Counted from the first letter of the stretch, positions 5,976-47,320 are shown. The stretch: 64,000 nt of DNA from Escherichia coli (GCF_017348835.2 NZ_CP071375.1); one strand, 5' to 3'. Notes: a model not told the origin generated them from the sequence alone. A program made the numbers and translations.

Positions 5976-8900
5976 TCACTGGAAACAAGTAACCAGACCA
6001 GGTTTATTGGCTAACGTGATACAACAATCCTCTGTGCCAGTGCTCTCGTCCATCCCACACCGTTGAGAGGACAAGTAAGGGAAACTTGGCGAAGCTGGCC
6101 ATCCCAGCGAATTAAACACAGTATACAATGTCTCTAACTCATTGTATGTCGGTGCATTTTCTATATTTCCACACTGCTTCGAGATATCCCATTTGCTGGC
6201 ATCAGTAATATGCGCAGAAGCCCAGTTTTCGTAGTTAATAATCGGTGAGGATACGGGATTGGCCCCGGACGGTAATTCAGTTGTCAGTATCGGTCGATGT
6301 AATGTTTTTCCATTCACCACTGCCGTGTCTGCCATATGCCCCCAGAAGTGAGCAGAAGATACATTTGGGCTGGTCAATACGGTGAAAATAGTGTCCATCA
6401 TTGCAGTCACTGTTGGGTATTTATCCAGCGTTACCGTCAGCGGCATTTTATAACCCGGCGTATTGTCCTGACGAACAGTAAAGTTTGCCGTGCCGTCTGC
6501 CCCCGTCACGCCACTGATCTCGTTCCCACTAACCGCCAATAGGGTAGCCGCCCCCGATGATGGCTGGATGGTAATATCATCCATAGCCGCCACATCGCCA
6601 TATAGCGTCGCCCCACTATTACGCGGAGAGGCATCACCACGTCGCAGAGTAAACGCCACATTTGGCACAGGTTTCCCGGCGCTGTCTTTCACCGTCACGG
6701 TGACTGGCATTGCCTCGCCCTTCTTCACTTTCGCCGCCTGAGCGGTGGAGTCAAATGCCGTTGACGTCAGGGTGACGGTAGAAACCGTTGAGTGAGGGTG
6801 CACCAGGCACGCCTGGAAGGCGCGGCTTTTAGATACAGTCACAAGTTGACCTGTGTTGAAGTCAAATGATTCACAAGAATTCGCGCCCGCAGGACAATCT
6901 GCATTTGTCCACCACACATAGCTATTCTGTTTCACCGGCCAGCCAATCTCATTGACGATAGAGCCATTCGGATAGCGGTTGTATAAAGATTGAAGCTCAT
7001 CCAATGATGGATATCGTGCGCTTTCACAAGGGATAAGCTCCGGCAAATATCGCTGGGTAATATATGGCGCAGGCCAGCTTTCATTATTTATATTCACTTT
7101 AGTGAGCGAATAACCGCCACCGCTGGTTGCCCCCATTTCGGCCCACAGTTTCATCCGCTCAAACTGCGTTCCGTCTGCTGAGCTTACCGTTTCTGGCATA
7201 TGTCCCCAGAAGTTGGCTTTTGGCGTATCCGGGCTTGTTACTACGGTATACATCAGGTCGAGATCTGACTTTACCCCTGTTTCACGTGCAAGCGTCGCCG
7301 TAAACGGTGTTACCAGTCCCCAGGTATTATCCTGCGTAGCGGTTAACGTGATGATGCCATTACCGTCCGTAACCCCGTTCCAACTGGCGTTATCATCTGC
7401 AAATTTGTAATTGGCTTGCGCAACCGGCGTCAGGAACTGTAGCAGCAGATCATCTGCTGTCGAGCTTGTGAAATCACTCGGCGTGCGCACTTGTGCTGTC
7501 GCACGCGACAACCTGACGCTTTCATAGGCGGCAGGTCTGCCCGCATCATCCGTGACCTTGATAGTTAACGGTATTGATACGCCCTTCTTCGCCCATGCAG
7601 TCGGACGGTTGTCGTTGATGCCTGTTTTGTCCGCATTCAGCAACGTAGACGTCAACTCAATCGTCGTTGCCTCAGTGTGCGGGTCAACCAGGCAGAGCAT
7701 TAAATTGCCCGCCGTCGATGTTGTACTTTCGTTGCGGATAGCACCGCTCATCAGATCAAGCACCTGGTTATACCATGTTGAACTTGAAACAGTTTGGTCG
7801 TACGCCCACCAGTAATTACCTGCGTTAAGAGGCAGCCCCAAATCAGTTTCCAGCGCACCATTTGGATGGTCGTTGTAAAGCCCCATTAGCTCACTACTGA
7901 AGGGTTGATAAGGCGAAGTGCAGCCTGAGATCGAACTGTTCGCTTTGTTGGTTGCATCTGGTCGCGCCCAGTCTTCATTGTTGATATTAAAGGACGCAGT
8001 CCCGGACAACTCGGCCTTCAACTGTGGTCGCCTGAACGCGACGCCCGCGCTGCTGGTAAAGGTTTCCGGCATATGGCCCCAATAGTTAGCCTTCGGCGTA
8101 TCCGGGCTGGTGATCACTGTGAAAATCGCACTTAAAGATTGTGAAGCAATCGAACCATCGTCCAGTTTCGCCAACAACGGAATACGAACGCCATATCCTT
8201 TATGGAACTGATATACCGTCAACGTCGCCGTTCCGTCAGGCCCGGTAACACCATAAAAATCATCGCCCTCATTAATGATTGGCGTTTGATGATTGGATGA
8301 ATCCGTGATGTAAATTAATTTCGACTGGTAATCTGAACTTACTACATTCTGACGGCTAAGCGTCGCACCATGTTCCAGCAAGAAGGGTACATTACCCAGC
8401 AGATTTCCCTGCGCGTCGCGCGTTGTGACCTTAATGGTGATGAAATCATGATCAACTTCATAATTGGTTTTTGCTTTAACCCCCTGATTACCATCATAAA
8501 CCTGCGCTTGTTCAGAGGTTAACTCAATTGTGGCGACCTTCGGGTTAGCCGTTGTCTGGCAGGTTAAATACCCCCCTTTTGACTCCAGTACACTGCTGGT
8601 GCCATTACTCAGTTGCACACCAAGGTAATTACGATTACTTACGCTGGCACCATCGGCGGTGCTGGTGTCATAGACTTTTAATACTGGCCAGCCGTCTACA
8701 GCATGACCGCCCCAGCTTGTCGATAACGTGGTTAATGCATCTTTGGTCGGGATATTATCTGCGCCACAACCGTTATTTTTCGCATTCTTACTTGCCTGCG
8801 CTTCAGTAAACAGCGCCCAAATTTCGTTATCCTCTTCCGGGCTTTTACGTCCATTGCCGGGAGAACCACTCAGTTCTGAAAACAGGATCGGTCGCTTAAA

Positions 8901-11900
8901 CGTCAATCCTCCCGCTGTGAGTGTTTCTGGCATATGCCCCCACATTTTTGCCTTGTTAGTGTCAGGGCTGGTGACAACGGTAAAAATAGTGTCTAACGAT
9001 GCGTTTTTTGTTGGATCGGAATAGAGCGCAGCGGTAATTGCCGTTTTCGTGCCGTGAGTGTCCGGGCGGGTGATGGTGAGAATTTTGCTACCGTCACTCC
9101 CCGTTAACCCAGCGTATGCACTGGCAGTATCGTTAAGCGACATTTCATCTGACATTCCGGCATCCACCACGACCGGTGAAACGATCCCGTCACCGCTTCC
9201 TGCAATATGCTTTTCATTGCTACGGGTGTAACCATCGCCACGCTTCAGGGTAAAGGGCATTCCCGGCATCGGGTTACCCGCCGTATCTTTCACCGTGACT
9301 TTTACCTGTAGCGTTTCACCCTTTTTCAGTTTCGCTGCATTAAGCGTGCTATTCCACTGTGCCTGATCGACCACTTCCAGCGTAATGGTGCTGGCGGGTG
9401 GGTTAGCGTCCTTCAGGCAGGAGATATAAATTTCCGAGGAACTTGTTTGCACGTTTCCGTTATTCAGCCAAACCGCTGCAAAGTGCGGGACTTTATCGGT
9501 AGGCGTGCTACTCCAGTAAGGCTGGCGCTGAGTCGGCCAACCATGCTCAGTTTGAATCGCGTTATTACTGTTGGCGCGATAGAGCGCATCAAGCTGTGAC
9601 TGGCGTGGCACTTTATTGGCCTCACAACCGCCCACCGCGCTATTTTCGATCTCGGACTGATCGACGCGTAACCAGGTTTCATTATTTTCATCAAAGGGAC
9701 GCCCGGAACCGCTTACCTCCACCGCCAGTTTGGGGCGATTAAATGTAATAGAATCCACAGTTATCGTGTCATCCATGTGCCCCCACATTCTCGCTCCCAT
9801 CACATCCGGGCTGGTGGGAACCGTAAAGATTACATAGTAGTTAATGGTATTCGGCAGAACAGAATTAGGAGGCGTGACAACAAGTCGCGTTCTTAAGCCA
9901 ACGCCTTGTGGCTGCTCAACAACAACGGTTGCCTGCCCCTGTGCGTCTGTAATACCGGAGTAAACCATTGAGGATTGTGAGGTACCGTACTGCGTCCCAT
10001 TCAGGGTTATTGCGCCGTTACTGGGATCGGTAAACCCGGTTGCGCTTTCTTCACGGTCAAGACTGATATCTTTGGTAATAGTAAAAGCCGTGAACGGCAC
10101 CCGCTCGCCATTCAGAGCATTAACTGTGCGCACCGTCATGGTGATTTGTTCACCGACTTTCGCCCGTGCCAGGCTGCCCGAGGTAGTATCACGATCGGTT
10201 GTCACTTCAACCTTCGCCACCATCTCATTACCAGAGCACGAGAGATAGTTTTGTTTAAAACCGCTATAACTGTCGACGTTCCCTGTTCCGAGGTTTACCG
10301 ATGAATGCGTTGTCTGCTCCGCGGCAGTTAAATAGTCCTTTACTGCGGTTGGCCAGCCATACTCAGTCCCGATGATATTGCCAGGGTAAGCCGAATACAG
10401 ACTTTCCAGTGAGATCTCACGCGGTATATGCCCCGTGCCGCATTCTGCCTGCATACTGGTATTTTGATCGAATAACGCCCAGTCTTCGTTATTTTCCCGT
10501 ACTGTGCCTATTTCATGCGTGGTTTCAGCCGCCAGCAGCGGTCGTTTATATAAACTGCCAGCATCAATAATGCCGTGCATGTGGCCCCACATCCGCGCAT
10601 ATTCGCTGTCCGGACTGGTCACCACCGTAAAGACCACATCTTTGGCATCTTCAGCAGTGAAATTACTGCGCATTTTCGCCGTAATATGCGTTTTAACGCC
10701 TGCGCCGTCAGGCTGCGTCAGCAGCAGAGTTGCCTGACCATTGACGTCGGTCATTCCCTCATAATTATGATCATCTACCTTTTGCAGGTTGGTGCCGCCG
10801 GAAATTTGTACCGGATGCGCTTCCCACGCCGGATCGGTTTGATTTTTGCGGTTAACGCCGTCATCGAGATGCAGCGAGAAGTAGTAATAAGCCAGCGGCT
10901 GATTGTTATTTTTTTTATCGGTAATGGTCAGGCGTATCGTAGTGCTGTCACCGACCTCTGCCTTCGCGGCATTTATACTTTCATCAAAGTTACTGGGCGT
11001 GAGCACCAACTCTGGCTCAACATCGGGTTCTGCTTTATCCACACAGCTCACGATATACTTTGTACTGTCTGGTTTTTGCGCTTCGCTGCGGTTAGACACA
11101 TCAGCCGCGTGGTGCTGCCCGGTACTTCCTGCCAGAGATGACCAGTAATAATCACCCTGCATCGGCCAACCGGCGGTCTCCTGAATAGAGTTAGGGATCA
11201 CCGTAGCCAGCGCGCCAAACTGGCGCATGCCAGGCAAAATATCGCAGTGGTTATCTGCGCCACTCCAGGTGAAGGTCGACCAGGTTTCACCGTGATCGTT
11301 CACACTGCCATCTTCGTTATCAACTTCCGCCGCCAATTTCGGACGACTAAAGGTGTAATTCATGGCCGTCAGGGTTTCCGCCATATGGCCCCACATATTG
11401 GCCTGCGGGGCATCCGGGCTGGTGAGTACAGTAAATATCACCGCCGTTTCACTGGTTTGCGAGATGCCAGAAAGGCTGACCACCAGCGGCGTTTTGACAC
11501 CTGGACCATTGGGCTGCGTCACCGTGACGGTAGCTGCGCCATCAGCATTAGTCGTGCCCCGATACTCCGTTGCTGTGGTGGTGAGTTCAGTGGTATCAAG
11601 ATTGACAGGTGAGGTGTTATTCACCACTCCCTGGCGGTTTTCAGCATCTTTTCGTTTGATAACAAAAGGGATATTGCTCGCAATATTACCTTCACAATCT
11701 TGGGTGGTTACGGTTAAGGTGATTGAACCATCGACAGTAGTCTTTGCCGCTTGTAACGTATCGTCATAGCCACTGGCGCTAATTGTCACCAGGTCGCCCT
11801 GGGCGGGAGCAATATTCAGCGTCACTTTATGTTCAGCCAACGGCACCGTCCCCTGATTAGGCACACCAGTTAACGTGTAGAGGTAGAGTAAAGGTAGCGC

Positions 11901-12386
11901 TTCCTGCTCATTGATTCGCGGCCACGCCACCAAAGAACGCCCTGCCAGATTCTGCGCGCAGAAAGAGCGGTCCGGGCGCGGTTGTGGGCTGAGCGGCGTA
12001 TCTGGCGTCGCGGCATCCGTCCACACAAGAGATACAGCAGGAGGCGTCTGGTTTTGCCAGCCTAGCACGGGGGGATTAGAAAAAAGATCGCCTTCAGGAT
12101 CGTGAGGGTTAACCAGAATCATTCTCGCCGCTGTGTCATCAACACTGAATGCGCTGGGTTTTACAGATGCCTGAATGTCGTAGGTTTTGCTCGGATCAAG
12201 CTGAACGCTTCCCTGATAAACGGGTACGCTGGCGCTCTCTGCCCCGGGCACTGTGCCATTGATTGCGTCGGTCGAGATGCCAGTTTGTTGCCACTGGCCA
12301 CCTTTTAATACTGCCCCAACCTGAAAAGAGAGGAAGAGCAGAAAAACCGCCGTTATCGCTTTTATCAGTTTCAAAGTCCCGTCCAT
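5976..12386 (-). CDS. ratA: Giant repetitive secreted surface protein with seven Ig-like modules (RatA-like, CS54-island type)
   Basis: 2136-aa ORF with N-terminal signal peptide; an approx. 290-aa module recurs seven times, each ending in a T-V-(V/L)-T-S-P-D ... (M/F/Y)-W-G-H-M signature. Position next to sinI/sinH between xseA and yfgJ matches the Salmonella CS54 island. Confidence 0.7.
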
Positions 12387-12520
12387 GATTGAAACCTGCC
12401 CGTTTAAAGTTATTTTTTCACTTCAACCCACTTTGCTTAACGCTGGCTAAGCAAAGTGTGCGGAGAAGCACCATTCCCTTGCTGAAATGACCAGATTGTT
12501 GACAAAGTGCGCGTTATTCA

Positions 12521-12620
12521 TGCCGGATGCGGCGTTAACGCCTTATCCGACCTACAAAATCGTGCAAATTCAATACATTGCAGGAACCATGTAGGCCTGA
12601 TAAGCGAAGCACATCAGGCA
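12521..12620. repeat. REP elements (BIME-like pair)
   Basis: tgccggatgcggcgttaacgccttatccgacctac and inverted partner gtaggcctgataagcg...catcaggca match the E. coli REP consensus. Confidence 0.5.
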
Positions 12621-12676
12621 GTTTTGCCTTTGTCATCAATCTGACCATTCCCTTGCGGGAATGGTGCTGGTAAAGA

Positions 12677-13642
12677 TTATTTTCTCTGGTAATCGATGGA
12701 CAAACCGTAGCCCTGAACACCATCCGCGCCAAGGGTGAGGCCACCTTCGCTGTAGTCGAACGCAGTTTTCGCTTCGGCGTTGGTAACTGGGATAACCAGG
12801 TCGCTGTTGTTGTAGCTCGGGTTGACAATCCCACCGTTGGTACGCAGTTGCAGACTGGTACCGGTAAAGCGCCAGCGGTAGTTGTACTGGCTGGTAACCT
12901 CTTCGCCAGTGTCGTAGGAGCCGTTGCTGTTTTTATCTTTCCACAGCATGACCTGATAAGTGGTATTGGTTTTGAGTTTGGTTTCTTTGCCCAGCAGGTT
13001 GGTGTTAACACCCTGCTCATGAATGACAACTTTAACCGCATCGTCAAATACCGGACCTTCCGGAATATCATCGCTGTCAGAACCACCGCCCGCGTTGGTG
13101 GAGAGGTCTAACAGGATCAGTTGTTCTGCAACGTTAGGATCACCGGTCGTGGTGGTCGGGGTAATTTTCAAACCGATGTAGCGATCGGCATCCGCTGCGG
13201 CAATGGTATAGGTGTCACTGCCCGTTGTACCGATCTCTTTCGGATCACCCCCCGCCTGGTCGCTATAGCTCATCCATTGCAGCGTCGCTTTGGTTGCAGT
13301 GTTGTTGTCGTCAAGGTCGCCCTGGGTATCGCCAATGGCCCAGTTTGCAGTTAACTTGTCACCAATATGAAATTGCTTCTCGCCATCGGTTGAAGCAGAA
13401 CGTCCGCCACGATCAACGGTAATGGACACATGAGATTTATCGGCATCAGTCGTTTCTGACGCGCTACGGGTGATCCACGGCACGGTACCCTGAATCGTTC
13501 CGGTCGTTTGCGTCTCTGACTGCCACTGGCCCGCTCTAAGGTTGCCCTGCCCTTCTGCCATGGCGGCAGGCACTGCGCAGTACCCCGCTAAAGCCAGCGC
13601 CAGCGCGACTTTAGTCATCGGTCGCTTTAAATAGTGTTTCAT
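12677..13642 (-). CDS. sinI: Secreted protein, SinI-like (CS54-island type)
   Basis: 321-aa ORF with signal peptide MKHYLKRPMTKVALALALAGYCAVPAAMA; C-terminal approx. 90 aa are homologous to the C-terminus of the adjacent SinH-like protein. Confidence 0.6.
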   Translation of the reverse strand: MKHYLKRPMTKVALALALAGYCAVPAAMAEGQGNLRAGQWQSETQTTGTIQGTVPWITRSASETTDADKSHVSITVDRGGRSASTDGEKQFHIGDKLTANWAIGDTQGDLDDNNTATKATLQWMSYSDQAGGDPKEIGTTGSDTYTIAAADADRYIGLKITPTTTTGDPNVAEQLILLDLSTNAGGGSDSDDIPEGPVFDDAVKVVIHEQGVNTNLLGKETKLKTNTTYQVMLWKDKNSNGSYDTGEEVTSQYNYRWRFTGTSLQLRTNGGIVNPSYNNSDLVIPVTNAEAKTAFDYSEGGLTLGADGVQGYGLSIDYQRK

Positions 13643-13697: not shown

Positions 13698-15878
13698 CTA
13701 GTGCTTGCTGTAAACCACACGTAATCCATACCCCTGCACGCCATCCTCTTTTTGGGCACCAAATTTCTGTACCGCTTCCTCGTTAGTGGCAGGGATGACA
13801 ATATCTTCATTACTGGTATTCGATTGCGCACCGGTGTAGCCATTGACGCTGTGTCCGGTAAATTCCCACTGGTAGTCGTATTGCGCCATTTCTTCTTCCG
13901 TCAGTTTTTCCGACTGCTGGAAAACGCCATCTTTGTTGACATCGCGCCACAGGACAAAACGATAGGCGTTATCAACAGGCAAATGCTCTTTCTCATTGCC
14001 GATAAGATTGATGGGGTTAGTCGCGGATACACGGTAGATAAAGGCATTAACATCGTTGCCCCCCGCGCCGAGGAAAGTCACATCGACATAGTTACTATCG
14101 TCATACGGTGCGGCCTTTGCTTTCCAGCGGAAGGTGCCGGGCAAAGTACTGGAGAGGGTGACGGTTCCTTTCTCTTTATCTTGCTTCGCGATAAAGACGC
14201 ACGGGTTATCGGTCGAGCAGGGTTTATTGGTGAGGGTGACTTTTTTATCCTGAGCATCGTAAAGCTGCGGACTCAGGCCATCTTCCGGCAGCGCATTACC
14301 GTTACGGTCAGTGTCATCACCAAAGCTATCGGTAACATCGAGATCCATCACCACGCCATCGACGCCATCCGCCTGAGCGCTGGCTTCATGACTGTGATTG
14401 TTTTCATCCGGCACATCCGCAATGTTGTTGACGATCAGTTCAATTTTGCGATCCTGCTGAACGGTGATTTCCACCACGCCGGAGTTTTGCCGGTTGCCTT
14501 TTTCATCTTCCAGAGCCAGACGCACGCGCCAGGTATTGAGTTTTTCCTGTTCGGCGGGATCAGAGCTGTACTGCCAGGCTGGCAGCACCAGATTCCAGTG
14601 GTTGTTGTTCCCTTCCGTGAGGGTATTTTCTTTGATAACCGGCATCACCAGAGTACGCGCAGCGTTGTTTCTCGCCTGCCAAGAGGCGACGACAATCTTA
14701 TAGTGATGATTGATTAGCGCATTGATTGTCCACTTACATTTTTCCAGCCCTACCGCAGCTTCGGGGGTGTCCTTGATGACACAATCCGGGTGTTCATTGG
14801 TGGCGTCAGCCTTCAGCCACAACGTAACGTCGAGAGGATCTTTTTCTTTATATTCCAGAACAATAAAATTATTGCGCTCAACAAAGTCATGGCGGCTGCC
14901 CATCAGCGAGTGAGCTGCTTTGACGTTATCGCTATTCAGTTGATCTTTTAGCGGAACACCGAACTGATAGTTAATCGTGGCGTTAACGCTAAGATCACTG
15001 TTATCTCCGGTACCTGCTTTATAATCCGTCCCGACCGTCAGTAACGGAACGGGTTGATAGTTCACGCCAAGCGTCACTGCATAGGGATCTTTTTCTAAAT
15101 TATCGGTGCCGAAGAGCGCCACTTCGTCACCATAATATTGCTCGAAAACAATTTTGCTCCCCAACTGAGGATAAGAAGGAAGCCTGGCTTCCGCCCGGAC
15201 ATCCCAGCCACGTGCGGGGCGTTCTAAATAGAAATCAAAATCTTTTGAATCTTTCCACTCTGAAAGCGGATGATAATAGTTACCAGAAAATTTTAAATAA
15301 TCCGTCCAGGCTTCTGTTCCCAAACCTAAACGGCGATGTCCGCGGGTGAAATCATAATCATAAAATATATTCCCCCCCAGAAGCCATTTATCAAAATTAT
15401 GTCTTACACCTAAACCTATATTACCTATCGTGCGTTCTTCTTTTCGTTGCGCAGAAAACTGACTGAAATAGACTGTGCTCTGATTGTCATACCAGGGGAC
15501 AAAATAGTCGATTGAACTGCCGTCCAGATCGCCACCCTGACCGATGGAAAGGTTAGAGCGAACTTTACCATAAGGAGAAAGCGCACCTTCGATATAAGAC
15601 TGTGCAGATGATGTGATTTGCCCTTGCAGATAGCTTCTCGCCTGGGATTCAAGAGCTTCTGGAGTCAGGTTCTCAAAGCCCTGCTGGGCGGACTCGGTAA
15701 CGTAATTGGCACCACGTTCCTTGAAAGATTTGCCTTTGTTACTTTGTTCCTCTTGTTGAGCCGTTTCGCTTGCCAGATCAGGTAATGAAGATTCGCTTTG
15801 CTTAATATTTATCTCCGGTGCCGCATAAGCAGCACCAGAAATAACGATTAGCGTTATATAGCGAATCCATCGCAGCAT
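13698..15878 (-). CDS. sinH: Intimin/invasin-family outer-membrane adhesin (inverse autotransporter), SinH-like
   Basis: 726-aa ORF with signal peptide; aromatic-rich N-terminal region typical of the intimin/invasin beta-barrel, then extracellular domains; AT-rich upstream region. Confidence 0.7.
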   Translation of the reverse strand: MLRWIRYITLIVISGAAYAAPEINIKQSESSLPDLASETAQQEEQSNKGKSFKERGANYVTESAQQGFENLTPEALESQARSYLQGQITSSAQSYIEGALSPYGKVRSNLSIGQGGDLDGSSIDYFVPWYDNQSTVYFSQFSAQRKEERTIGNIGLGVRHNFDKWLLGGNIFYDYDFTRGHRRLGLGTEAWTDYLKFSGNYYHPLSEWKDSKDFDFYLERPARGWDVRAEARLPSYPQLGSKIVFEQYYGDEVALFGTDNLEKDPYAVTLGVNYQPVPLLTVGTDYKAGTGDNSDLSVNATINYQFGVPLKDQLNSDNVKAAHSLMGSRHDFVERNNFIVLEYKEKDPLDVTLWLKADATNEHPDCVIKDTPEAAVGLEKCKWTINALINHHYKIVVASWQARNNAARTLVMPVIKENTLTEGNNNHWNLVLPAWQYSSDPAEQEKLNTWRVRLALEDEKGNRQNSGVVEITVQQDRKIELIVNNIADVPDENNHSHEASAQADGVDGVVMDLDVTDSFGDDTDRNGNALPEDGLSPQLYDAQDKKVTLTNKPCSTDNPCVFIAKQDKEKGTVTLSSTLPGTFRWKAKAAPYDDSNYVDVTFLGAGGNDVNAFIYRVSATNPINLIGNEKEHLPVDNAYRFVLWRDVNKDGVFQQSEKLTEEEMAQYDYQWEFTGHSVNGYTGAQSNTSNEDIVIPATNEEAVQKFGAQKEDGVQGYGLRVVYSKH

Positions 15879-21061: not shown

Positions 21062-21160
21062 ATTCTCTTTCTGAATATAAAAATGAACCCTCAACGCTTC
21101 CCTCAATGTTTCGGGAGCCATGCGGGTTCAATCATACACGGGAAGCGAGGCGCTTCCCAT
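21062..21160 (-). ncRNA. sroE: Candidate SroE-type small RNA in the ispG-hisS intergenic region
   Basis: 110-bp spacer with a stable hairpin (gggaagcgaggcgcttccc); an sRNA is known at this position in E. coli. Boundaries approximate. Confidence 0.3.
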
Positions 21161-21167
21161 CACGTTA

Positions 21168-22286
21168 TTATTTTTCAACCTGCTGAACGTCAATTCGACG
21201 CGCTTCGTCCAGCTGACTGGCTTTCGCACGAATGCGTGCTTCCAGCTGGTCGATCATATCGTTGTTGTCCAGACGGTCTTTGCGCACGCCATCTTCATAG
21301 AGGCCGCTTTTCTTGTTGCCGCCGGTGACGCCGAGTGTAGAAACCAGCGCCTCACCTGGGCCATTCACCACGCAGCCGATAATCGAAACGTCCATCGGAG
21401 TGATGATATCTTCCAGGCGTTGCTCCAGCGCGTTAACCGTACCGATAACATCAAATTCCTGACGCGAACAGGTCGGGCAGGCGATGAAGTTGATCCCTCG
21501 CGAACGGATACGCAGCGATTTCAAAATATCGAAACCGACTTTGATCTCTTCGACCGGATCGGCCGCCAGTGATACGCGCAGCGTGTCGCCGATGCCTTCA
21601 GACAGCAGCAGACCTAAACCAATGGCGGATTTTACTGCCCCGCTGCGCGCGCCACCCGCTTCGGTGATCCCCAGATGCAGCGGCTGATCGATTTGTTTTG
21701 CCAGCAAACGATAAGACTCAACAGCGAGGAAGACGTCAGACGCTTTCACGCTGACTTTGAACTGATCGAAGTTCAGGCGATCGAGATGATCAACATGGCG
21801 CATGGCGGATTCCAGCAACGCCTGCGGCGTCGGTTCGCCATACTTTTCTTGCAGATCTTTTTCCAGCGATCCGGCGTTAACGCCAATACGGATCGGAATG
21901 TTTTTATCGCGCGCACAGTCAACCACCATGCGAATACGCTCTTCATTACCGATATTGCCGGGGTTAATACGCAGACAATCGACGCCGTATTCCGCTACTT
22001 TCAGCGCAATGCGATAGTCGAAGTGGATGTCAGCCACCAGCGGCACGTTAACCCGCTGTTTGATGAGTTTGAACGCTTCTGCCGCGTCCATCGTCGGTAC
22101 GGAGACACGGACGATATCAGCGCCAACGCGTTCCAGCGCCTTGATTTGATTGACCGTTGCTTCGACATCTGTCGTACGCGTATTGGTCATGGACTGTACG
22201 GCGATGGGAGCACCATCGCCAATCGGCACATTCCCAACGTAAATACGTGTTGATTTTCTACGTTGAATTGGAGCCTGGTTATGCAT
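21168..22286 (-). CDS. ispG: 4-hydroxy-3-methylbut-2-enyl diphosphate synthase (flavodoxin)
   Basis: 372-aa [39 protein letters not shown]...; C-terminal Cys ligands CPTC. Confidence 0.95.
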
Positions 22287-38698: not shown

Positions 38699-38994
38699 TG
38701 CTGGTCTGGTTCGCGGCCTTTCCAGCAGGTTGACTTGTGTTGCCGGAGCAACGCAGGCACCCCACAGTGTTGAAATACTCTCTTTTATGCCTGGCTGTGT
38801 CAAGATAATAAACAGAGTAATTATTCAAACATGAGAGTATTATTCTTAATGGCCCTTTTCGCCGTCTCGCAAACGGGCGATGGCTTTAGGAAAGGATGTT
38901 CCATGACCGTAAATACAGGCACCCCACAGTGCTTGCTATCGCGGCAATATCGCCAGTGGTGCTGTCGTGATGCGGTCTTCGCATGGACCGCACA

Positions 38995-39120
38995 ATGAAG
39001 ATACGGTGCTTCTGTATCGTACTTATTGTTTCTGGTGCGCTGTTAACCGAGGTAAATAATAACCTGAGTCTCTCCGGCGACAATTTACTGGTGGTTAACA
39101 ACCTTCAGAGCAGCAAGTAA
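38995..39120 (+). CDS. Small hydrophobic protein, candidate type I toxin (RyfA/TimP-like), copy 1
   Basis: 41-codon ORF MKIRCFCIVLIVSGALLTEVNNNLSLSGDNLLVVNNLQSSK followed directly by a terminator; an in-frame ATG 12 nt upstream is an alternative start. Confidence 0.45.
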   Translation: MKIRCFCIVLIVSGALLTEVNNNLSLSGDNLLVVNNLQSSK

Positions 39121-39152
39121 GCCCGAATGCCGCCCTTTGGGGCGGCATATTT
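39121..39152 (+). terminator. Rho-independent terminator of toxin transcript 1
   Basis: gcccgaatgccgccctttggggcggcat followed by attttag. Confidence 0.5.
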
Positions 39153-39156
39153 TAGA

Positions 39157-39237
39157 TTATCCGATTCTGTTTAAAGTCACGCAAAAAACCACCCCAGCGA
39201 CGTTCATAGAATGGCGCAATATGTTCGATATTAAAAT
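39157..39237 (-). pseudogene. Duplicated 3' fragment of sseB (about 26 codons)
   Basis: Minus-strand translation ...IEHIAPFYERRWGGFLRDFKQNRI* matches the SseB C-terminus; homology to 39830..39907 stops abruptly at 39237. Confidence 0.55.
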
Positions 39238-39351
39238 GACCTGGCTTATTAGTCCGAATTCAGACAAATATAAACAAATCCCGCTCAATATTAAAAATAC
39301 TAACCGGTAAAAGATATTACTTAAACATGTAAATTCACTTTCTTTAAGCAA

Positions 39352-39907
39352 CAAAAAACCGCCAAAATCAGGCGGTTATTTGTTGCCGGTTTGGTTCGCG
39401 GCCTCTCCAGCAGGTTGTATTACCGTAGTAATGCAAGCGCGTCTCAGCGGAGACAATACTCGCCAGTAACTCTCTTTTTGTCAAGTAAAAGAGAGTTATT
39501 ATTGTTCTGTTAGTGTATTATCCACTGCGGCCCTTTCCGCCGTCTCGCAAGCGGGCGCTGGCTTAAGGAAAGGATGTTCCGCGACCGTTAGAGCAAGCGC
39601 GTCTCAGCGCTTGCTATCGCGGCAATATCGCCAGTGGTGCTGTCGTGATGCGGTCTTCGCATGGACCGCACAATGAAGATACGGTGCTTCTGTATCGTAC
39701 TTATTGTTTCTGGTGCGCTGTTAACCGAGGTAAATAATAACCTGAGTCTCTCCGGAAACAATTTACTGGTGGTTAACAACCTTCAGAACAGCAGGTAAGC
39801 CCGAATGCCGCCCTTTGGGGCGGCATATTTTAGATTATCCGGTTCTGTTTAAAGTCACGCAAAAAACCACCCCAGCGACGTTCATAGAACGGCGCAATAT
39901 GTTCGGT
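39352..39907. repeat. Tandem repeat unit 2 of the ryfA-type small-toxin locus (approx. 556 bp)
   Basis: Begins with a terminator-like hairpin aaaaaaccgccaaaatcaggcgg and runs into the real sseB 3' end. Confidence 0.7.
39673..39798 (+). CDS. Small hydrophobic protein, candidate type I toxin (RyfA/TimP-like), copy 2
   Basis: 41-codon ORF MKIRCFCIVLIVSGALLTEVNNNLSLSGNNLLVVNNLQNSR; three substitutions relative to copy 1. Confidence 0.45.
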   Translation: MKIRCFCIVLIVSGALLTEVNNNLSLSGNNLLVVNNLQNSR

Positions 39908-40606: not shown

Positions 40607-40640
40607 AAGAACCACAATTCATTCAACGTTCGGGGCACAA

Positions 40641-40745
<105 letters not shown>

Positions 40746-47205: not shown

Positions 47206-47320
47206 TGCTCTATAAACTCCGTACATCACTCAATGCAAGGAACCAGGCTACCGGCTGGATGTACGACCGTGTTTACGGAGCGCGATACGCTCCGGCCTGA
47301 TTCTGAATACTTTTTATCTT

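What the first reader, a model, noticed from the sequence alone, without database searches (positions are those of the whole stretch)
12430..12665. REP/BIME element that appears to have inserted into a hairpin, flanked by a 13-bp direct repeat
accattcccttgc occurs at 12470-12482 and again at 12644-12656, bracketing a 161-bp segment that holds the REP pair. Joining the flanks recreates a clean hairpin, gcaccattccc-ttgc-gggaatggtgc, which would be the sinI terminator. This looks like a REP-containing segment inserted into a terminator loop with duplication of the target, in the spacer between sinI and ratA.
Basis: seen in the sequence. Interest (0 to 1): 0.3.

Follow-up and report, generated by a model that had tools for sequence, protein, structure and literature searches.

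The report
BIME-1 repeat inserted at sinI terminator
A 152-bp copy of a common E. coli intergenic repeat (a BIME-1 element) landed at the terminator hairpin after sinI and duplicated that hairpin; three other E. coli loci show the same hairpin-duplicating footprint, which bears on the unsolved question of how these repeats spread.

Summary
ACCATTCCCTTGC occurs exactly twice in the window, at 12470-12482 and 12644-12656, bracketing a REP pair.

E. coli E69 and E. whittamii, and more distantly Citrobacter and Superficieibacter, carry one uninterrupted hairpin (GCACCATTCCC-loop-GGGAATGGTGC followed by TTTTCC) after sinI. The empty site is therefore ancestral, and this island lineage gained an insertion.

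The insert is a sharply bounded 152-bp BIME-1 (RIP-type) unit, 12492-12643. It consists of a Y REP, an L linker with an IHF-type site and a Z1 REP, framed by 16-nt terminal inverted repeats. It is 79-91% identical to copies at dppA-dppB, fepA-entD, barA-gudD and mngB.

The duplication is better read as the whole 22-bp hairpin core. Of those 22 positions, 13 are still identical and 9 have decayed in the left copy.

Filled and empty alleles at yfeX-pbp4b (30-bp duplication), satP-mog (20 bp) and dppA-dppB (5 bp) each add exactly 152 bp plus the duplication. This variable, structure-defined target duplication fits neither the duplication-free IS200/IS605 model nor a fixed-stagger transposase.

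The instance itself is an ordinary new member of a known family. The general footprint may be under-described and is mechanistically informative.

The parts
12492..12643 (+). The inserted 152-bp BIME-1 (RIP/RIB-type) unit: left outer motif, Y REP, L linker, Z1 REP, right outer motif.
   Evidence: Homology with copies at dppA-dppB, barA-gudD, mngB-downstream and fepA-entD starts at CAGATTG and ends at TCT (+1 nt) in every case. Pairwise identity to those copies is 80-91%. The segment is absent from the empty alleles L012 and L018. The single strand folds with its termini paired, z = -6.7.
12492..12507 (+). Left terminal inverted repeat CAGATTGTTGACAAAG.
   Evidence: One search finds a reverse-complement match at 12628-12643 with 1 mismatch. 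The motif is conserved at the left end of all family members. The 30-nt left motif occurs at a median of 6 places per E. coli genome.
12628..12643 (+). Right terminal inverted repeat CTTTGTCATCAATCTG.
   Evidence: (I1). The right motif occurs at a median of 7 places per genome.
12522..12555 (-). Y-type REP (palindromic unit). GTAG is at its 5' end on the minus strand.
   Evidence: Palindrome I2. One mismatch to the REP 3' consensus. Invariant block in alignments A1 and A5.
12556..12590 (.). L linker with an IHF-type site, AATTCAATACATTG (12567-12580).
   Evidence: Full-length match to Rfam RF02751 (ES036), 52.4 bits against a gathering score of 37.6. This model corresponds to the BIME-1 L motif plus the first 8 nt of the Z1 REP. 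The match to WATCAANNNNTTR with one mismatch was read from the sequence. That the L linker carries an IHF site is stated in PMC3333891.
12591..12620 (+). Z1-type REP, starting with GTAG.
12644..12665 (+). Right, intact copy of the target hairpin core: ACCATTCCC-TTGC-GGGAATGGT.
   Evidence: Perfect 9-bp stem (I4). The arms are identical to those of the single hairpin in the empty alleles.
12470..12491 (+). Left copy of the hairpin core: ACCATTCCC-TTGC-TGAAATGAC. The first 13 nt are identical to the right copy. The last 9 nt are a decayed 3' arm.
   Evidence: 18 of 22 positions are identical to the right copy. On the sinI-sense strand the 9-mer still pairs 8 of 9 with GGGAAUGGU if G.U pairs are allowed; only 0.7% of all 9-mers do as well (a post hoc test). 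The 9-mer is not found next to any other copy of the unit in E. coli.
12468..12469 (+). Outer GC of the original stem, not duplicated. Pairs with 12666-12667.
   Evidence: Comparison with the empty alleles.
12666..12667 (+). Outer GC of the original stem, not duplicated.
12462..12467 (-). Remnant of the U-tract. It reads TTCTCC on the sinI-sense strand, against TTTTCC in all empty alleles.
12429..12458 (.). Second, sequence-conserved palindrome CACTTTGCTTA-N8-TAAGCAAAGTG, upstream of ratA. It is context only and not part of the insertion.
   Evidence: (I3).

Best explanation
SHOWN.
- The ancestral sinI-ratA spacer held one conserved, covarying hairpin followed by TTTTCC. This is an intrinsic-terminator or attenuator type structure 14 nt after the sinI stop codon.
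- In the ancestor of this E. coli island lineage a 152-bp BIME-1 unit was inserted at that hairpin. The unit has a Y REP and a Z1 REP head-to-head, an L linker with an IHF-type site, and 16-nt terminal inverted repeats.
- The product is [hairpin copy] - unit - [hairpin copy].

INFERRED (anatomy).
- The duplicated target is the 22-bp hairpin core.
- The left copy, which on the sinI-sense strand is the one next to the old U-tract, has since lost 4 of 9 positions in one arm.
- The U-tract has also changed, from TTTTCC to TTCTCC. This suggests the original terminator is no longer maintained.

INFERRED (mechanism).
- The unit moves as a precise 152-bp entity.
- It is joined to target strands that are cut at, or within 2 nt of, the two feet of a hairpin: one strand at each foot. 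At dppA-dppB the cuts are 5 bp apart, directly beside a hairpin foot.
- Gap filling then duplicates whatever lies between the cuts. That explains duplications of 5, 20, 22 and 30 bp with a constant insert.
- The likeliest catalyst is the REP-associated Y1/HUH transposase TnpAREP (RAYT). It would act in the same way on both strands, because both the element and the target are palindromic. This was not tested.

INFERRED (consequence).
- The sinI 3' end now carries a REP pair and an IHF site.
- From what is known of REP and BIME elements, this should stabilise upstream sinI mRNA and alter read-through into ratA.
For: Insertion polarity.
- Six independent empty loci from three genera carry a single hairpin.
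- Four stem pairs of that hairpin show compensatory changes across genera.
- All 48 E. coli complete genomes with the locus, plus Escherichia sp. E1V33, carry the insert.

Unit boundaries.
-.

Constant insert size.
- Filled minus empty equals 152 bp plus 22 bp at sinI-ratA.
- It equals 152 bp plus 30 bp at yfeX-pbp4b.
- It equals 152 bp plus 20 bp at satP-mog, less a 2-nt flank indel.
- It equals 152 bp plus 5 bp at dppA-dppB.

The flank duplication is locus-specific and significant.
- Cognate left-versus-right flank alignment scores are 50, 30, 23 and 17 at four of eight loci.
- The maximum among 56 non-cognate flank pairs is 16.

Junctions.
- No microhomology is visible between the unit ends and the target flanks at any of the four filled/empty junctions (read).
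- This argues for enzymatic joining rather than copy-choice.

Literature.
- TnpAREP binds REPs and cleaves nearby single-stranded DNA, and the route by which REPs spread is still called unknown (PMC3333891; PMC8266576; bioRxiv 10.64898/2026.03.23.713779).
- REPs sitting inside small palindromes were reported in other phyla (PMC3733652).
Against: - The 22-bp reading needs 4 changes concentrated in 9 nt while the adjacent 13 nt stayed identical. A 13-bp duplication plus 9 nt of filler cannot be excluded for this locus.
- The unit's ends do not coincide with the C|T cleavage rule reported for TnpAREP, and IS200/IS605-type transposition makes no target duplication. The enzyme assignment is therefore weak.
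- Four of the eight family members examined show only short flank repeats or none clear: dppA-dppB, fepA-entD, barA-gudD and yfeS-cysM.
- The simple terminator scan did not call the ancestral hairpin a terminator, because its U-tract has only 4-5 U.
- No expression data were available.
- Older subscription papers on BIME polymorphism could not be read.
Confidence: 0.75

Rival explanations
1. A 161-bp segment (the unit plus 9 extra nucleotides) was inserted into the loop of the hairpin, with a 13-bp target duplication made of the 5' arm plus the loop. The 9 nt TGAAATGAC would be filler, or donor flank carried along.
For: The 13-bp repeat is perfect while the next 9 nt match at only 5 of 9 positions. 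The mngB copy also has a poorly matching stretch between the left repeat and the unit.
Against: - No other E. coli copy of the unit has TGAAATGAC beside it. Only the 48 sinI loci cover at least 80% of the junction query.
- The 9-mer retains 8 of 9 pairings with the hairpin arm if G.T pairs are allowed, p about 0.007.
- At yfeX-pbp4b and satP-mog the entire hairpin is duplicated and both copies directly abut the unit.
- With a 22-bp duplication the insert is exactly 152 bp, as at the other three loci.
Confidence: 0.15
2. Insertion without a transposase. A nascent strand stalled at the terminator hairpin switched template to another BIME-1 copy, copied it, and returned upstream of the hairpin, so that the hairpin was copied twice.
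For: The duplication length varies from 5 to 30 bp and tracks hairpin size. Hairpins are known polymerase pause sites (general knowledge).
Against: - The same 152-bp unit with identical end points was added at four independent loci.
- None of the junctions shows microhomology between the unit ends and the target. Template switching normally needs microhomology and gives ragged end points.
Confidence: 0.15
3. The filled arrangement is ancestral, and the short alleles arose by deletion between the direct repeats (precise excision).
For: Direct repeats flanking a long palindrome are deletion-prone (general knowledge). 'Excision of a whole BIME-1' is how such polymorphism was described in 1997 (title and abstract as recalled and as cited in PMC3333891).
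Against: - All six loci that diverge from the window lineage by 7-33% in SinI, from Escherichia, Citrobacter and Superficieibacter, have a single hairpin with lineage-specific loops and compensatory stem changes.
- The insert is confined to alleles at least 97.6% identical to the window across the aligned spacer and gene ends.
- Y and Z1 REPs of this type are E. coli repeats.
Confidence: 0.03

Closest known systems
BIME-1, also called RIP or RIB elements, of E. coli: a Y REP, an L linker with an IHF site and a Z1 REP. In RAYT terminology it is a REPIN.
   Same: - The REP types and their head-to-head arrangement, with GTAG/CTAC facing the linker.
- A 35-nt L linker with an IHF-type site.
- A single-copy element.
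- Location in the 3' region of a transcription unit.
- 80-91% identity to copies in standard K-12 spacers.
   Different: - It sits in an accessory adhesin island present in only about 48 of 5426 complete E. coli genomes. REPs are said to avoid laterally acquired DNA (PMC3686654).
- It belongs to the sub-family that also carries 16-nt terminal inverted repeats. The other BIME-1 in this window lacks them.
IS200/IS605-type single-strand transposition and its domesticated relative TnpAREP (RAYT).
   Same: - Subterminal REP hairpins with a GTAG foot are the recognised substrates.
- The target is a DNA that can fold as a hairpin.
- The element is non-autonomous.
   Different: - IS200/IS605 elements have no terminal inverted repeats and make no target duplication.
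- Here there are inverted repeats and duplications of 5-30 bp.
- The unit ends do not sit at the reported C|T cleavage sites.
Bacterial MITEs, for example ERIC/IRU, Correia and RUP.
   Same: - About 150 bp in size.
- Terminal inverted repeats.
- Flanking direct repeats.
- Folds into a long stem-loop.
- An IHF site, as in Correia elements (PMC3184786).
   Different: - MITE target duplications have a fixed, short length set by the transposase. Here the length varies and follows the size of the target hairpin.
- No IS with matching ends is known.
Cas1-Cas2 spacer integration at a CRISPR repeat. This is an analogy of outcome only.
   Same: Two strand-transfer events at the two borders of a partly palindromic target duplicate the whole target on either side of the insert. 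IHF is involved in E. coli (recalled knowledge, not tested).
   Different: The insert is a 152-bp repeat, not a 33-bp protospacer. No cas genes are implicated, and no sequence relationship exists.
REPs found inside small palindromes in Thermomicrobium roseum and Halothiobacillus neapolitanus (Di Nocera et al. 2013, PMC3733652).
   Same: A REP or REP dimer framed by the two halves or copies of a short GC-rich palindrome.
   Different: Those are different phyla and different REP families. That paper gives no empty-site comparison and makes no statement about duplication.

Membership tests
BIME-1 / RIP (RIB) element | One Y-type and one Z1-type REP in inverted orientation. | tested here: met
   Y REP at 12522-12555 and Z1 REP at 12591-12620, with CTAC and GTAG facing the linker. 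Both align as near-invariant blocks with K-12 copies. Definition taken from PMC3333891.
BIME-1 / RIP (RIB) element | A long, conserved L linker carrying an IHF consensus. | tested here: met
   The 35-nt linker is conserved across copies. It gives a full-length Rfam ES036 hit above the gathering score. AATTCAATACATTG matches WATCAANNNNTTR with one mismatch (read from the sequence).
BIME-1 / RIP (RIB) element | Actual binding of IHF. | not testable with these tools
   Needs a gel-shift assay or ChIP.
BIME-1 / RIP (RIB) element | Extragenic, single copy per locus, at the 3' end of a transcription unit. | tested here: met
   The element lies 33 nt after the sinI stop codon, inside the 290-bp sinI-ratA spacer, as a single unit.
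MITE (non-autonomous DDE-type transposon) | Terminal inverted repeats. | tested here: met
   16-nt inverted repeats with 15 of 16 positions complementary, conserved across copies.
MITE (non-autonomous DDE-type transposon) | Target-site duplication of a fixed, element-specific length. | tested here: not met
   The duplications are 5, 20, 22 and 30 bp at four filled/empty pairs of the same unit.
MITE (non-autonomous DDE-type transposon) | A parent IS with the same inverted repeats in the host. | not tested
   No IS-sized hit appeared among the matches to the end motifs, but no dedicated search was run.
IS200/IS605-like, RAYT-mobilised REPIN | REP hairpins with a 5' GTAG, recognised by TnpAREP. 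| tested here: met
   Both REPs carry GTAG. Recognition rules are from PMC3333891.
IS200/IS605-like, RAYT-mobilised REPIN | Insertion without target duplication. | tested here: not met
   Duplication is present at all four filled/empty pairs.
IS200/IS605-like, RAYT-mobilised REPIN | A tnpAREP gene in the same genome and dependence of mobility on it. | not tested
   The gene was not looked for in the 64-kb window or elsewhere. Dependence needs genetics.
Intrinsic (Rho-independent) terminator, as the target | A GC-rich hairpin maintained by selection. | tested here: met
   A 10-12 bp stem with 4 pairs showing double compensatory changes across six loci.
Intrinsic (Rho-independent) terminator, as the target | A U-tract directly after the stem, with termination activity. 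| tested here: inconclusive
   TTTTCC or TTTTTCC follows the stem in five of the seven empty loci (six have a T-run of at least 3; the Citrobacter Res13 locus L016 has none). However, the consensus scan, which needs at least 5 T in 8 bases, does not call it. Activity needs Term-seq or reporter assays.

The most novel reading that the evidence does not exclude
BIME-1 units of the type with terminal inverted repeats integrate by a structure-guided reaction. The two target strands are cut at the two feet of an intrinsic-terminator hairpin, so each insertion duplicates the whole terminator.

This would be a distinct, previously undescribed integration mode for REP-family repeats, perhaps TnpAREP acting symmetrically on palindromic donor and target. 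It would explain why these repeats accumulate at the 3' ends of genes, and it would make their spread experimentally testable.
Probability: 0.4. Interest if true: 0.7.

Novelty: new member of a known kind. Interest (0 to 1): 0.45.

Why it matters
How REP and BIME repeats, roughly 1% of the E. coli genome, spread has been open since 1984. The 2021 and 2026 papers I read still call the dissemination and insertion mechanism unknown.

Clean filled/empty pairs are rare, because estimated REPIN duplication rates are about 1e-8 per generation. This locus gives an unambiguous insertion polarised by outgroups.

Together with three polymorphic core-genome loci it shows three things:
- a constant 152-bp insert;
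- junctions without microhomology;
- a target duplication that equals a terminator hairpin.

That contradicts the simple IS200/IS605 picture, which has no duplication. It points to hairpin feet as the sites of strand joining, and it suggests a direct assay: a terminator hairpin as a trap, with and without TnpAREP.

Locally, the insertion has replaced a conserved terminator or attenuator between sinI and the large adhesin gene ratA. It may therefore change their relative expression in the lineages that carry this island, including O145:H28 STEC.

Tried and rejected
1. Search for a donor carrying TGAAATGAC next to the unit.
- BLAST of the junction against 5426 E. coli genomes found it only at the sinI locus.
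- An exact 16-mer scan of metagenome contigs returned only chance hits, none continuing into the unit.

2. Empty alleles were sought but not found at some loci.
- mngB-downstream: every genome that has the locus is filled.
- fepA-entD: the unit is fixed.
- barA-gudD: only an alternative allele was found, with a boxC-like repeat in place of the unit.
- yfeS-cysM: the unit lies at the edge of a larger indel.

3. Inverted duplication of the flank through the palindromic unit is rejected. The loop TTGC has the same orientation in both copies, and the non-palindromic GTATG repeat at dpp is direct.

4. Fixed stagger across an extruded cruciform (duplication = palindrome + N) is rejected as stated. 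Duplication minus palindrome length is -4, 0 and +1 to +2, not a constant.

5. I noticed that most differences between decayed and intact hairpin copies are transitions, and that in two loci they are G-to-A on the unit's plus strand. I considered single-strand deamination during gap repair. The sample is far too small, the test is post hoc, and ordinary decay explains the pattern.

6. Cas1-Cas2 as the catalyst is rejected. The substrate size is wrong and there is no supporting evidence. It is kept only as an analogy of outcome.

7. Key older papers could not be read: Gilson 1991, Boccard and Prentki 1993, Bachellier 1997. I therefore cannot say whether flanking hairpin duplication was already noted there.

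Full report
**1. Observation**

The window is E. coli. The query stretch 12200-12900 is 100% identical to strain PE164. The finding lies in the 290-bp spacer of a CS54-like adhesin island between xseA and der, whose genes are all on the minus strand:
- sinH (13698-15878);
- a SinI-family gene (12677-13642);
- a 2136-aa RatA-like gene (5976-12386).

ACCATTCCCTTGC occurs at 12470-12482 and 12644-12656 and nowhere else in the window, even with one mismatch; no shuffle gave two matches. The 161 bp between the copies hold a Y-type REP (12522-12555) and a Z1-type REP (12591-12620).

The repeat finder adds two things. The direct repeat continues to 20 nt at 18/20. The two flanks also form a 41-nt inverted repeat.

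**2. What the inserted thing is**

About 5180 of 5426 complete E. coli genomes contain a sequence up to 92% identical to window 12492-12642 somewhere else. The two places identified are the dppA-dppB and barA-gudD spacers.

Alignment of these copies, and of further copies downstream of mngB and between fepA and entD, shows that homology always begins at CAGATTG and always ends at TCT, followed by one variable base. Outside those points the flanks are unrelated between loci.

The unit is therefore 152 bp (12492-12643) and consists of:
- left motif CAGATTGTTGACAAAG;
- Y REP;
- a 35-nt L linker with an IHF-type site;
- Z1 REP;
- right motif CTTTGTCATCAATCTG, which is the inverted repeat of the left motif (15/16).

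This is the composition of a BIME-1 as defined in PMC3333891. The same elements are called RIP or RIB elements in the older literature (recalled, not checked).

The L linker is what the Rfam model ES036 matches. I take that hit as repeat-derived, not as evidence for an sRNA gene here.

The end motifs occur at a median of 6-7 places per E. coli genome. They define a sub-family: the other BIME-1 in this window (about 40640-40745) lacks them.

The unit's single strand folds with its termini paired (z = -6.7).

**3. Insertion or deletion?**

All 47 E. coli complete genomes with the full locus, and one with a truncated ratA, carry the same arrangement. O145:H28 strains have an extra CATT inside the left repeat. 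So no empty allele exists in that collection.

A protein-guided scan of one genome per species recovered eight sinI loci:
- Escherichia sp. E1V33 is filled; its spacer and gene ends are 97.6% identical to the window.
- E. coli E69 has one uninterrupted hairpin, GCACCATTCCC-GTAT-GGGAATGGTGC followed by TTTTCC.
- E. whittamii has the same stem with loop CTTG.
- Three Citrobacter, one Superficieibacter and one further Escherichia locus (67-74% SinI identity) also have a single hairpin at this position, in most followed by a run of T (TTTTCC or TTTTTCC in three of the five).

In an alignment of six of these seven empty loci, four stem pairs show compensatory double changes. The single hairpin is thus ancestral and under selection, and the window lineage gained the unit.

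Both copies in the filled allele share the loop TTGC, which differs from the loops of the empty alleles. This shows that the loop belongs to the duplicated segment.

**4. Extent of the duplication**

The 9 nt between the left 13-mer and the unit (TGAAATGAC, 12483-12491) are not part of the repeat family. No other E. coli copy has them.

They match the hairpin's 3' arm GGGAATGGT at 5 of 9 positions. On the sinI-sense strand they keep 8 of 9 pairings if G.U pairs are allowed, which only 0.7% of 9-mers would do (a post hoc test).

If they are a decayed arm, then:
- the duplication is the 22-bp hairpin core (12470-12491 and 12644-12665);
- both copies abut the unit;
- the insert is exactly 152 bp.

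The U-tract next to the decayed copy has also changed from TTTTCC to TTCTCC. The alternative, a 13-bp duplication with 9 nt of filler, cannot be excluded from this locus alone.

**5. The same footprint elsewhere**

Three more spacers are polymorphic for the same unit within E. coli.

yfeX-pbp4b:
- 1401 genomes are filled.
- The empty allele has one terminator, AGGCCAGGCAGTAACATTACTGACTGGCCT followed by TTTT.
- The filled K-12 allele has this 30-mer on both sides of the unit, 28 of 30 identical.

satP-mog:
- 467 genomes are filled.
- The empty allele has ATCCCCCC-GCTC-GGGGGGAT followed by a T-run.
- The filled allele has CTCCCCCCGCTCGAAGGGAT, then the unit, then ATCCCCCCGCTTGGGGGGAT followed by the T-run.

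dppA-dppB:
- 3250 genomes are filled and about 2175 are empty.
- The filled allele has a 5-bp repeat, GTATG, directly beside a hairpin foot.

In every case filled minus empty equals 152 bp plus the duplication.

Scoring left against right flanks, four of eight loci (scores 50, 30, 23, 17) exceed all 56 non-cognate flank pairs, whose maximum is 16. The other four loci show only short repeats or none clear.

None of the four filled/empty junctions shows microhomology between the unit ends and the target.

**6. How it most likely works**

*Shown:*
- a precise 152-bp unit;
- a target that is a hairpin, or lies next to one;
- a direct duplication, not an inverted one, since loop orientation is preserved;
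- a duplication whose length follows the hairpin.

*Inferred:*
- The two target strands are cut at the two feet of the hairpin.
- The unit is joined to them.
- Gap repair copies the hairpin on both sides.

A constant insert with clean junctions argues for an enzyme rather than template switching. The variable duplication argues against a fixed-stagger DDE transposase. The presence of any duplication argues against simple IS200/IS605-type single-strand insertion.

The REP-associated transposase TnpAREP is the obvious candidate, because it binds these REPs and cuts nearby single-stranded DNA. Because both the element and the target are palindromic, the same reaction on each strand would give cuts offset by the hairpin length. 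However, the unit ends do not fit its reported C|T sites, and nothing here tests the enzyme.

*Consequence:*
- In the sinI-sense RNA the first hairpin copy is now followed by the unit instead of a U-tract.
- The copy next to the old U-tract is weakened.
- The most stable predicted fold is one long nested stem (-122 kcal/mol, z = -8.7), against two separate hairpins in the empty allele.

From what is known of REP and BIME elements (mRNA 3' protection, attenuation, IHF binding), I expect changed sinI mRNA stability and changed read-through into ratA. This is inference only.

**7. Comparison with what is known, and novelty**

The element is a BIME-1, and all testable defining features are met. 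Presence/absence polymorphism of whole BIME-1 elements was reported in 1997, known to me only from the title and abstract as recalled and as cited.

What I could not find in the searchable literature is that such units are flanked by duplicated terminator hairpins:
- Reviews state that REPs lack MITE signatures.
- Mechanistic papers still call the route of spread unknown.
- The nearest statement is that REPs in two unrelated bacteria lie inside small palindromes.
- Several older key papers were not readable, so prior description cannot be excluded.

**8. Verdict**

I refine it to a 152-bp unit and a probable 22-bp whole-hairpin duplication.

As an instance it is a new member of a known family, in an unusual place: an accessory island present in about 1% of E. 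coli genomes. The recurrent hairpin-duplicating footprint is the part that a specialist might find useful.

Noticed in passing
window 12429-12458: A perfect 11-bp-arm palindrome, CACTTTGCTTA-N8-TAAGCAAAGTG, lies between the terminator hairpin and the ratA start. Its sequence, not only its pairing, is conserved in the Escherichia, Citrobacter and Superficieibacter loci. It occurs once per locus and nowhere else in the window. It looks like an operator or an RNA element controlling ratA.
   Followed up: partly
L009 (E. coli 2018-05-2CC), corresponding to window 12447/12448: This strain has lost the 5' part of ratA. The deletion breakpoint falls at the centre of the conserved palindrome just described.
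   Followed up: no
L006 and L010 (O145:H28), corresponding to window 12472-12475: O145:H28 alleles carry a 4-bp CATT tandem duplication inside the left hairpin copy. This breaks the 13-bp direct repeat.
   Followed up: no
window 12556-12598: The Rfam family ES036 (CssrF 'sRNA') matches in full and above its gathering score. The matched stretch is the L (IHF) linker of BIME-1 plus the first 8 nt of the Z1 REP, and it is antisense to sinI here. The family appears to model a dispersed repeat rather than a specific sRNA gene.
   Followed up: partly
window about 40640-40745: A second BIME-1 (Y REP, L linker, Z1 REP on the minus strand) directly after a stop codon. It lacks the outer CAGATTG...CAATCTG motifs and shows no flank duplication.
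   Followed up: partly
L026 (E. coli NY1601) barA-gudD spacer: About 220 E. coli genomes carry a different GC-rich palindromic repeat (boxC-like...CCCCTCGCCCCTCCGGGGAGAGGGCGAGGGG...) where other strains have the BIME-1 unit. The right junction is the same, next to the gudD-side terminator.
   Followed up: partly
L150 (E. coli KSC64) near rhlE; L149 yfeS-cysM: One unit is truncated on its left by IS621. Another lies exactly at the boundary of a larger yfeS/yfeK gene-content indel. Units of this family thus coincide with other rearrangement end points.
   Followed up: no
L023 and L003, 29-32 nt left of the unit: The mngB and barA-gudD copies share TAGCAATC at nearly the same distance to the left of the unit. 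This could be chance, or a trace of shared flank.
   Followed up: no
window 38849-39831, 21077-21168 and 47207-47316: Two ryfA copies flanking an IS128 RNA, plus sroE and the iscRS element. These are known features and unrelated to the finding.
   Followed up: no
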